Positions 5,258 to 5,771 of a stretch of DNA of 64,000 bases are shown one piece after another (positions within the stretch are counted from its first letter, which is position 1; the number at the start of each line of letters is the position of its first letter). The notes under the pieces are model-generated. The model was not told the origin of the DNA. It saw only the letters and a program-made list of their open reading frames with translations, and ran no database searches. The DNA is taken from contig OX597819.1 in NCBI GenBank assembly GCA_951406725.2, positions 372,001 to 436,000 of the forward strand. Reading direction: 5' to 3'. This DNA comes from Octopus vulgaris. Its lineage: Eukaryota. Both the position numbers and the translations under genes were made by a program.

Positions 5258-5771
5258 AGCTGGCAACCGGCCACGAACGGACGGTGCTTTTACGTGTCAC
5301 CGGCACGGGGGCCAGCCGACGCTGGCAACGGACGCGAACGGATGGTGCTTTTACGTGCCACCGACACGGTTGCCAGACAGAGCTGGCAAACGGCCACGAG
5401 CGGACGGTGCTTTTACGTGTCACCGGCACGTGGGTCAGCCGAGGCTGGCAACGGACACGGACGGATGGCGCTTTTATGTGCCACCGACACGGGGCCAGAC
5501 AGAGCTGGCAAACGGCCACGAACAGATGGTGCTTTTACGTGCCACCGACACGGGGCCAGACAGAGCTGGCAAACGGCCACGAACGGACGGTGCTTTTATG
5601 TGTCACCGGCACGGGGCCAGGCGAGGCTGGCAACGAACACGAACGGATGGTGCTTTTACGTGCCACCGACACGGGGCCAGGCAGAGCTGGCAAACGGCCA
5701 TGAGCGAATGGTGCTTTTACGTATCACCGGCACGGGTGCCAGACGAGGCTGACAGCGGACACGAACGGATG
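5258..5771. repeat. Tandem array of ~61-bp GC-rich double-hairpin units in the LINE 3' UTR
   Basis: GGTGCTTTTA anchors at 5283, 5344, 5406, 5467, 5528, 5589, 5649 and 5710; each unit has CGTG(C/T)C-ACC-G(G/A)CACG and GCCAG-N6-CTGGC stems. Confidence 0.95.

What the first reader, a model, noticed from the sequence alone, without database searches (positions are those of the whole stretch)
5258..5771. RTE LINE carries a copy-number-variable array of ~61-bp double-hairpin units in its 3' UTR
Seen: between the RT stop codon and the (GAT)n tail lie 8 units here, 10 at 14978-15611, 2-3 in the other subfamily (7244-7400, 25010-25230) and degenerate units in old copies (2857-3180, 62146-62450). Each unit has an invariant GGTGCTTTTAC core, a CGTGCC-ACC-GGCACG stem and a GCCAG-N6-CTGGC stem with a variable loop. 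Two variants mostly alternate (GTGTCACCGGCAC with CCGAGG-type loop; GTGCCACCGACAC with ACAGAG loop), giving a ~122-bp higher-order repeat. The two long-array copies are near-identical in the ORF but differ in array content. Established: RTE 3' UTRs are usually short. Inference: the array may multiply an RT-recognition or protein-binding RNA module, yield small RNAs, or seed satellites.
Basis: partly seen in the sequence, partly recalled or inferred. Interest (0 to 1): 0.75.

Follow-up and report, generated by a model that had tools for sequence, protein, structure and literature searches.

The report
Reshuffling repeat array in LINE tail
A very common jumping gene, likely of an octopus, carries behind its gene a variable run of ~61-base repeats that likely are spare copies of one conserved folded-RNA module, likely gained and lost while the element copies itself, and that sometimes grow in place into kilobase minisatellites without more repeats making the element more successful.

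Summary
The array is real and family-wide: young long-array copies hold 4-25 ordered units (mode 11). The window's 8-unit copy is damaged: 129 bp of its tail are replaced by 152 bp of unique DNA, and its 99.8% identical sibling has 10 units. Duplicated units rarely share substitutions (11 shared, 181 single), so most reshuffling happens at or before insertion, likely by reverse-transcriptase template switching. One older copy expanded in place to 52 units. Unit number does not track success: the 2-unit subfamily is younger and more numerous (813 versus 343 exact hits), and both have intact ORFs. Stems are conserved across six subfamilies, most strongly in the tail-side unit (2.6% versus 27% difference), but do not covary. 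The first hairpin is predicted to pair between units; a pseudoknot fits its core equally well. The block behind the array lies in the 5' UTR of distant relatives. Relatives lack the array and share a terminal hairpin, the better reverse-transcriptase recognition candidate. The scan noted this family before on other DNA of this genome. Closest published analogues: SVA/LAVA VNTRs and Ogre 3' UTR repeats. Verdict: new variant of a known kind.

The parts
5258..5771 (-). Array of 8 remaining ~61-bp units (subfamily A), alternating variants
5106..5257 (.). 152 bp of unique DNA replacing 129 bp of the element (two tail-side units and part of block M)
4969..5105 (-). Rest of the 3' tail of the same copy, ending in (GAT)n
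4988..5025 (-). Terminal stem-loop, candidate RT-recognition element (inferred); kept with one double-sided and one wobble change in distant relative L325
5772..5819 (-). Unique proximal 3' UTR of subfamily A
5820..6767 (-). 5'-truncated ORF end (PHD-like finger and C-terminal region) of subfamily A
7075..7697 (-). Complete 3' UTR of a subfamily B copy: 2 units (7244-7400), intact block M (about 7190-7243), terminal stem, (GAT)n
7695..10075 (-). Broken, 5'-truncated ORF of the subfamily B copy; B-(TA)n-A chimera shared with G000:C1:5576749-5581186
14807..16750 (-). Second subfamily A copy; 10 cores at 14978-15611 with a scrambled stretch
25010..25393 (+). B-type 3' end with about 3 unit cores
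2700..3180 (-). Old copy; core repeated in longer, irregular duplications
62000..62450 (-). Old copy with degenerate cores
4240..4530 (+). Short 5'-truncated copy with three cores and tail

Best explanation
The array lies in the 3' UTR of an abundant RTE-type LINE and likely consists of spare copies of one conserved ~60-nt RNA module (a GCCAG/CUGGC hairpin plus a core predicted to fold as a small pseudoknot), likely gained and lost in register by reverse-transcriptase template switching while the element is copied. Shown: unit order, number range, conservation gradient, timing signature, in-place expansion of one old copy, and lack of a link between unit number and success. Inferred: the tail-side unit is the working one and, with the adjacent block M (a leader-derived stem-loop), likely helps the element's protein bind or stabilise its RNA; priming itself likely uses the terminal stem. 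Upstream units were likely once tail-side units and decay. Units are predicted to pair with one another in 14-bp helices, which would bring like units together and favour jumps. After insertion, a minority of arrays expand at DNA level into minisatellites.
For: 51 distinct subfamily A loci: 4-20 units, 18 of 51 with 11; in the 29 usable ORF-anchored loci 15 shorter, 7 with 11, 7 longer. Units of repeated type share 3 substitutions against 76 single in 16 arrays and 8 against 105 in 16 further arrays; about one third shared is expected for expansion at random times after insertion. Rearranged arrays are no older than modal ones (0.53% vs 0.48%, p=0.78). One 15-unit string recurs in 6 of 30 long arrays, so gains are heritable through sources. 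Tail-side units of six subfamilies differ at 2.6% of paired and 27% of unpaired columns; inner units differ from them at 31 of 364 and 88 of 338; ORF-side units decay. Pseudoknot stems paired in 126 of 135 and 103 of 108 cells over 27 unit types; such a pattern arises in 0.5-0.7% of shuffles. Older copies repeat only the core, with a 24-26-bp period. Block M lies in the 5' UTR of relatives L323 and L386 and keeps 96% of pairs over 10 sequences. Short-array subfamily younger and more numerous; intact frames in 4 of 20 B and 2 of 20 A long loci. 52-core array with 11 shared and 5 single variants.
Against: No covariation above shuffles for the pseudoknot (223 of 500) or the hairpin (198 of 500), nor clearly for block M (60 of 500); one-sided stem changes show no strand bias (11 G-U in sense, 9 in antisense, 6 mismatches). 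Folding z-scores are weak and better for the antisense strand (-1.4 vs -2.9). Unit types were kept only if they matched the stems at 19 of 23 positions, which inflates stem conservation; about five degenerate units were dropped. Inner units are still better conserved in stems than in loops, which could mean they work too. The shared-versus-single test cannot separate RT jumps from DNA slippage confined to fresh, unmutated arrays or to many source elements, and some 'single' calls are chimeric units. In SVA/LAVA the VNTR is remodelled at DNA level and not during retrotransposition (PMC4432496, passages). SINE-like elements with the tail but no core (10 sites) show the core is not needed by every passenger.
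Confidence: 0.6

Rival explanations
1. An SVA-like VNTR: the array is remodelled by replication slippage or microhomology repair in genomic DNA after insertion, and stem conservation reflects repeated re-amplification from one unit rather than function.
For: L452 shows in-place expansion with shared variants; a few young arrays share substitutions between units (L423, L425); no covariation; DNA-level remodelling reported for SVA/LAVA (PMC4432496, passages).
Against: 11 shared against 181 single substitutions in 32 young expanded arrays and no age effect; a near-identical locus pair keeps the same array string (L425/L426); tenfold lower divergence in paired columns of tail-side units.
Confidence: 0.2
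2. Dosage model: every unit is a working RNA module and more units improve protein binding, cis-preference or RNA stability.
For: All six subfamilies sampled keep two or more units; 22 of 41 tails in 77 random 10-kb stretches have two or more; inner units keep stems better than loops; two mirrored substitutions in alternate units give a perfect between-unit helix (-24.1 vs -20.8 and -11.9 kcal/mol).
Against: The 2-unit subfamily outnumbers and postdates the 11-unit one; losses are at least as common as gains; ORF-side units decay; 21 distant relative loci show no array.
Confidence: 0.12
3. The conserved motifs act as double-stranded DNA sites (palindromic protein-binding or promoter-like elements inherited from a leader), not as RNA structure.
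For: Conservation is of sequence, including the A-rich stretch, without covariation or strand bias; block M sits in 5' UTRs of relatives; the B-(TA)n-A chimera implies read-through transcription.
Against: Loops of 6-11 nt vary freely between fixed arms; all 5 further pair types in block M are standard pairs and only 2 of 51 cells are unpaired; the one core position unpaired only in the pseudoknot model is among the most variable.
Confidence: 0.08

Closest known systems
SVA/LAVA central VNTR (PMC4432496, passages read)
   Same: GC-rich, ordered repeat-unit array inside a non-LTR retroelement, conserved end units, variable middle, chimeric units at breakpoints.
   Different: Here the host is an autonomous LINE and the array is in its own 3' UTR; the signature in young copies points to change at or before insertion, whereas that paper found DNA-level remodelling and no change in new integrants.
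Hypervariable 3' UTR tandem repeats of Ogre/Tat LTR retrotransposons that seed satellites (PMC7004042, passages read)
   Same: Tandem units downstream of the coding region, differing in length between families, hypothesised to arise during element replication, some expanding in place.
   Different: Non-LTR element; one conserved core is re-amplified with 26-, 61- and 67-bp periods; longest array seen here is 3.4 kb.
Bipartite RTE derivatives and RTE-derived SINE bodies (PMC5786205 parts 1-4 of 5 read; PMC7245038 passages)
   Same: A 5' UTR segment of an RTE joined to an RTE 3' end.
   Different: Here the joint sits in the 3' UTR of an autonomous element with an intact ORF; the block M motif was not found in that paper's supplement.
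R2Tg 3' UTR pseudoknot bound by the R2 protein (PMC12222951, passages read)
   Same: Small pseudoknot in a non-LTR 3' UTR as a model for protein recognition.
   Different: In R2Tg it is single and within the last 67 nt; here it is predicted only, about 150 nt from the end and multiplied.
RTE-2_OV of Octopus vulgaris (PMC9115989, section 6 and passages read)
   Same: RTE-clade LINE in the same kind of genome, about 600-nt 3' UTR described as mostly microsatellite.
   Different: A different family: its primer hits 50 other places, whose ORF is 35% identical in RT.

Membership tests
RTE-clade LINE | Single ORF with AP endonuclease and RT, no ORF1 | tested here: met
   1,055-aa ORF with Exo_endo_phos and RVT_1 above Pfam cut-offs; no other frame over 400 aa upstream
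RTE-clade LINE | 3' end in a short tandem repeat | tested here: met
   (GAT)n tails throughout
RTE-clade LINE | RT phylogeny inside the RTE clade | tested here: inconclusive
   Only pairwise: 155 bits to the ORF at the RTE-2_OV primer site, 87 bits to another LINE ORF of the window; no tree with reference clades built
RTE-clade LINE | Short 3' UTR | tested here: not met
   About 590 nt in B, about 880 nt in modal A; short in relatives and in PMC2887409
RTE-2_OV | Matches the published primers; 1,109-aa ORF | tested here: not met
   0, 0, 0 and 1 of 20 long loci match four primers with up to 3 errors; ORF 1,055 aa
VNTR composite retrotransposon (SVA/LAVA) | Non-autonomous composite with Alu-like 5' part | tested here: not met
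   Array is attached to the element's own ORF
Retroelement-derived minisatellite | Long homogeneous array grown in place from an element's own unit | tested here: met
   52 cores, 3.4 kb, joined to the LINE tail, variants shared among units
H-type pseudoknot RNA module | Two crossing stems with short loops | tested here: met
   Pairing potential in 126 of 135 and 103 of 108 cells
H-type pseudoknot RNA module | Covariation or structure probing | tested here: inconclusive
Nin/Deu SINE domain | 70-120-bp conserved central domain | tested here: inconclusive
   Only a ~25-nt by-eye resemblance to bivalve and snail sequences in supplements; no scored alignment
Rfam family | Match to a curated model | tested here: not met
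   No hit on array or tail in 6 loci at E up to 1

The most novel reading that the evidence does not exclude
An autonomous LINE moved a piece of a leader to its tail and stacks pseudoknot modules there; the stack is re-dealt at most retrotransposition events through between-unit helices selected for by mirrored substitutions, making array length a per-insertion variable that tunes RNP assembly and continually seeds minisatellites.
Probability: 0.15. Interest if true: 0.75.

Novelty: new variant of a known kind. Interest (0 to 1): 0.45.

Why it matters
If the timing signature holds, this is a natural, countable readout of template switching by a non-LTR reverse transcriptase inside its own RNA, which was proposed for Ogre repeats and rejected for SVA. 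Ordered unit types make each event traceable, and the same unit shows the path from a LINE UTR motif to a kilobase minisatellite. It also points to a candidate structured RNA element and a relocated leader block in a LINE with about one tail per 19 kb (41 tails in 770 kb sampled).

Tried and rejected
Identity with RTE-2_OV: rejected. Rfam: only AT-repeat microRNA noise outside the array. Expression and small RNAs: no RNA holder listed; laying contigs of four runs gave only short pieces and nothing on expression or allelic length. Block M as Meta/MESC or V domain: its motif was not found in the supplements or texts searched, rejected as a label. Nin/Deu resemblance of the core: kept as a weak lead only; a pattern for it hit only this LINE family and 0 of 79 metagenome loci. 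Stand-alone satellite of the subfamily A unit: none among the 30 best long matches, longest 25 units, all tail-anchored; this search scores 40 candidates only. The nhmmer hits of the 3' UTR in relatives are individually weak (E 0.24-6); they count because 9 of 14 fall on block M. One search used a mis-registered structure and is void. One row (L214) is an unrelated stretch. One search timed out. Not found in print: searches; Repbase, most subscription journals, four unsearched and two oversized supplements of PMC9115989 and the repeat library of PMC13282606 were not seen and could describe the array.

Full report
Observation. The window lies in a 2.8-Gb genome, likely an octopus, inferred from its size and from 50 exact matches to a primer published for Octopus vulgaris. 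One point was missed. In this copy 152 bp of unique DNA (5106-5257) replace 129 bp of the element, removing the two tail-side units. A sibling on C1, 99.1-99.8% identical over window 5258-9722, has 10 units. The 8-versus-10 contrast is therefore damage, but copy-number variation is real elsewhere.

The element. Full copies encode one 1,055-aa ORF with AP endonuclease, RT and a PHD-like finger below Pfam's cut-off; 882 relatives were found among 7,985 candidates scored, the best at 57% identity, with the few names from a catfish and lancelets. It is not RTE-2_OV. Two young subfamilies exist. A has the long array, 343 exact hits for a 30-mer at the stop, mean tail divergence 1.1% (30 tails) and open frames of 1,047 aa in 2 of 20 long loci. 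B has two units, 813 hits, 0.3% (28 tails) and 1,055-aa ORFs in 4 of 20 long loci. The divergences come from best hits and are biased young for both. More units do not mean more success.

Array dynamics. Among 51 distinct A loci the unit number runs from 4 to 20; 18 have 11 units and 12 have the modal order; 38 type strings are distinct, an upper bound because some types differ by one base. In the 29 usable loci picked by the ORF side alone, 15 are shorter than 11, 7 equal and 7 longer. Changes are in register between like units (X next to X at 1 of 527 junctions) and the end units are kept. In 16 expanded arrays, units of repeated type share 3 substitutions and carry 76 single ones; one shared one is a lineage variant. 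In 16 further arrays the counts are 8 and 105; 9 loci already counted and 5 with poorly typed units were left out of those 30, and two of the 16 are a duplicated pair. Expansion at random times after insertion would share about a third (my model). Rearranged arrays are not older than modal ones. A 15-unit string recurs in 6 of 30 long arrays. [quoted passage not shown] A second regime exists: a search with a 67-bp unit of older subfamily C found runs of about 3.4 and 2.4 kb, and the first holds 52 cores joined to a LINE tail, with 11 shared and 5 single variants, i.e. expansion in place.

History of the unit. In 77 random 10-kb stretches, 41 tails reach the array side; 27 have at least one unit and 22 at least two. 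Older subfamilies carry about 2.5 (C, 4.6% divergence), 6 (D, 3.3%), 5 (E) and 4 (F, 7.4%) units; in C, D and F the link to the ORF end was seen (13, 3 and 13 of 30 loci). The oldest copies repeat only the core with a 24-26-bp period, up to about 7 times. The constant part is the core, not the double hairpin.

Structure. The second loop varies from 6 to 11 nt. In an 11-unit RNA the first hairpin is not predicted within units but between them (up to 0.99), and the two alternating variants are mirror substitutions that give the best between-unit helix; a templated mutation in an inverted repeat would give the same pattern. Earlier scan notes proposed an H-type pseudoknot in the core. I tested it: both stems can pair in 126 of 135 and 103 of 108 cells, it explains why the first hairpin's loop is nearly invariant while its innermost position varies, and it arises in 0.5-0.7% of shuffles. 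Paired columns differ by 0.11 and unpaired by 0.34 over 20 types; for tail-side units 0.026 and 0.27. Covariation on 20 real cores is at shuffle level for pseudoknot and hairpin alike, and folding z-scores are weak. Constraint is shown, with a selection bias from my parsing; the fold is predicted only.

What lies behind the array. Of 79 metagenome loci with related ORFs, 21 were read past the ORF end; none shows such an array, and where a tail is visible the 3' UTR is about 60-190 nt, in line with PMC2887409. One (L325) shares the terminal stem with one double-sided and one wobble change. Block M, just behind the array, lies in the 5' UTR of L323 and L386 and at the front of short elements ending in the RTE tail, and keeps 96% of its pairs over 10 sequences. 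In the own genome, 10 of 301 sites with block M and the terminal stem belong to a SINE-like body and have no core; 270 have the core; the sample is biased to the LINE. The 3' UTR thus looks like a bipartite RTE derivative (PMC5786205) fused behind an autonomous ORF, and the terminal stem is the better candidate for RT recognition (inference).

Comparison and verdict. It works like the SVA/LAVA VNTR and the Ogre 3' UTR repeats, but is neither. Papers seen: PMC9115989 (section 6, passages, four supplement files searched), PMC13282606 (part 1 of 3, passages), PMC5786205 (parts 1-4 of 5, supplement search), PMC4758252 (passages, supplement searches), PMC4824008 (passages, supplement parts 1-2 of 4), PMC5804259, PMC2887409, PMC7004042, PMC4432496, PMC7245038, PMC12222951 (passages). 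Nine searches found no description of this array. The scan has noted the family before on other DNA of this genome. New here are the timing test, the subfamily counts and the broken state of this copy. Best reading: one working tail-side module with spare, reshuffled copies (0.6). Interest 0.45.

Noticed in passing
window 5258-10075 and G000:C1:5576749-5581186: A B-(TA)n-A chimera occurs twice with different 5' ends and flanks, suggesting read-through from one source copied from the downstream tail.
   Followed up: partly
window 42891-42923: Five and a half TTAGGG repeats interrupt block M of a C-type copy.
   Followed up: no
L143 ORF residues 799-842: PHD-like finger after the RT domain; many of the 120 listed relatives carry PF00628.
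   Followed up: partly
L118 near 1415-1500: A 5'-truncated copy begins with an inverted copy of its own tail-side unit, as from a fold-back during copying.
   Followed up: no
L143 3' UTR; L086, L088: Subfamily B has its own duplications of about 100, 28 and 14 bp outside the 61-bp units.
   Followed up: no
unit core: About 25 nt resemble, by eye, the stem and A-rich motif of Nin/Deu SINE domains in supplements of PMC4824008 and PMC4758252.
   Followed up: partly
window 26034 region; L186 near 5115: Old copies with a ~105-bp duplication that includes both the core and block M.
   Followed up: no
window 16926-18440, 20860-23001, 43243-45977, 49347-50342: Other mobile-element ORFs: Penelope-like, CR1/Jockey-like, a second RTE-like and a Helitron-like helicase; labels recalled from motifs, not tested.
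   Followed up: no
window 33768-34245: Two tandem copies of a 236-bp unit, 78% alike, resembling the SINE-like repeat at window 1-215.
   Followed up: no
L112 about 5530-6750: A ~39-bp tandem array abuts the 5' end of the C1 sibling.
   Followed up: no
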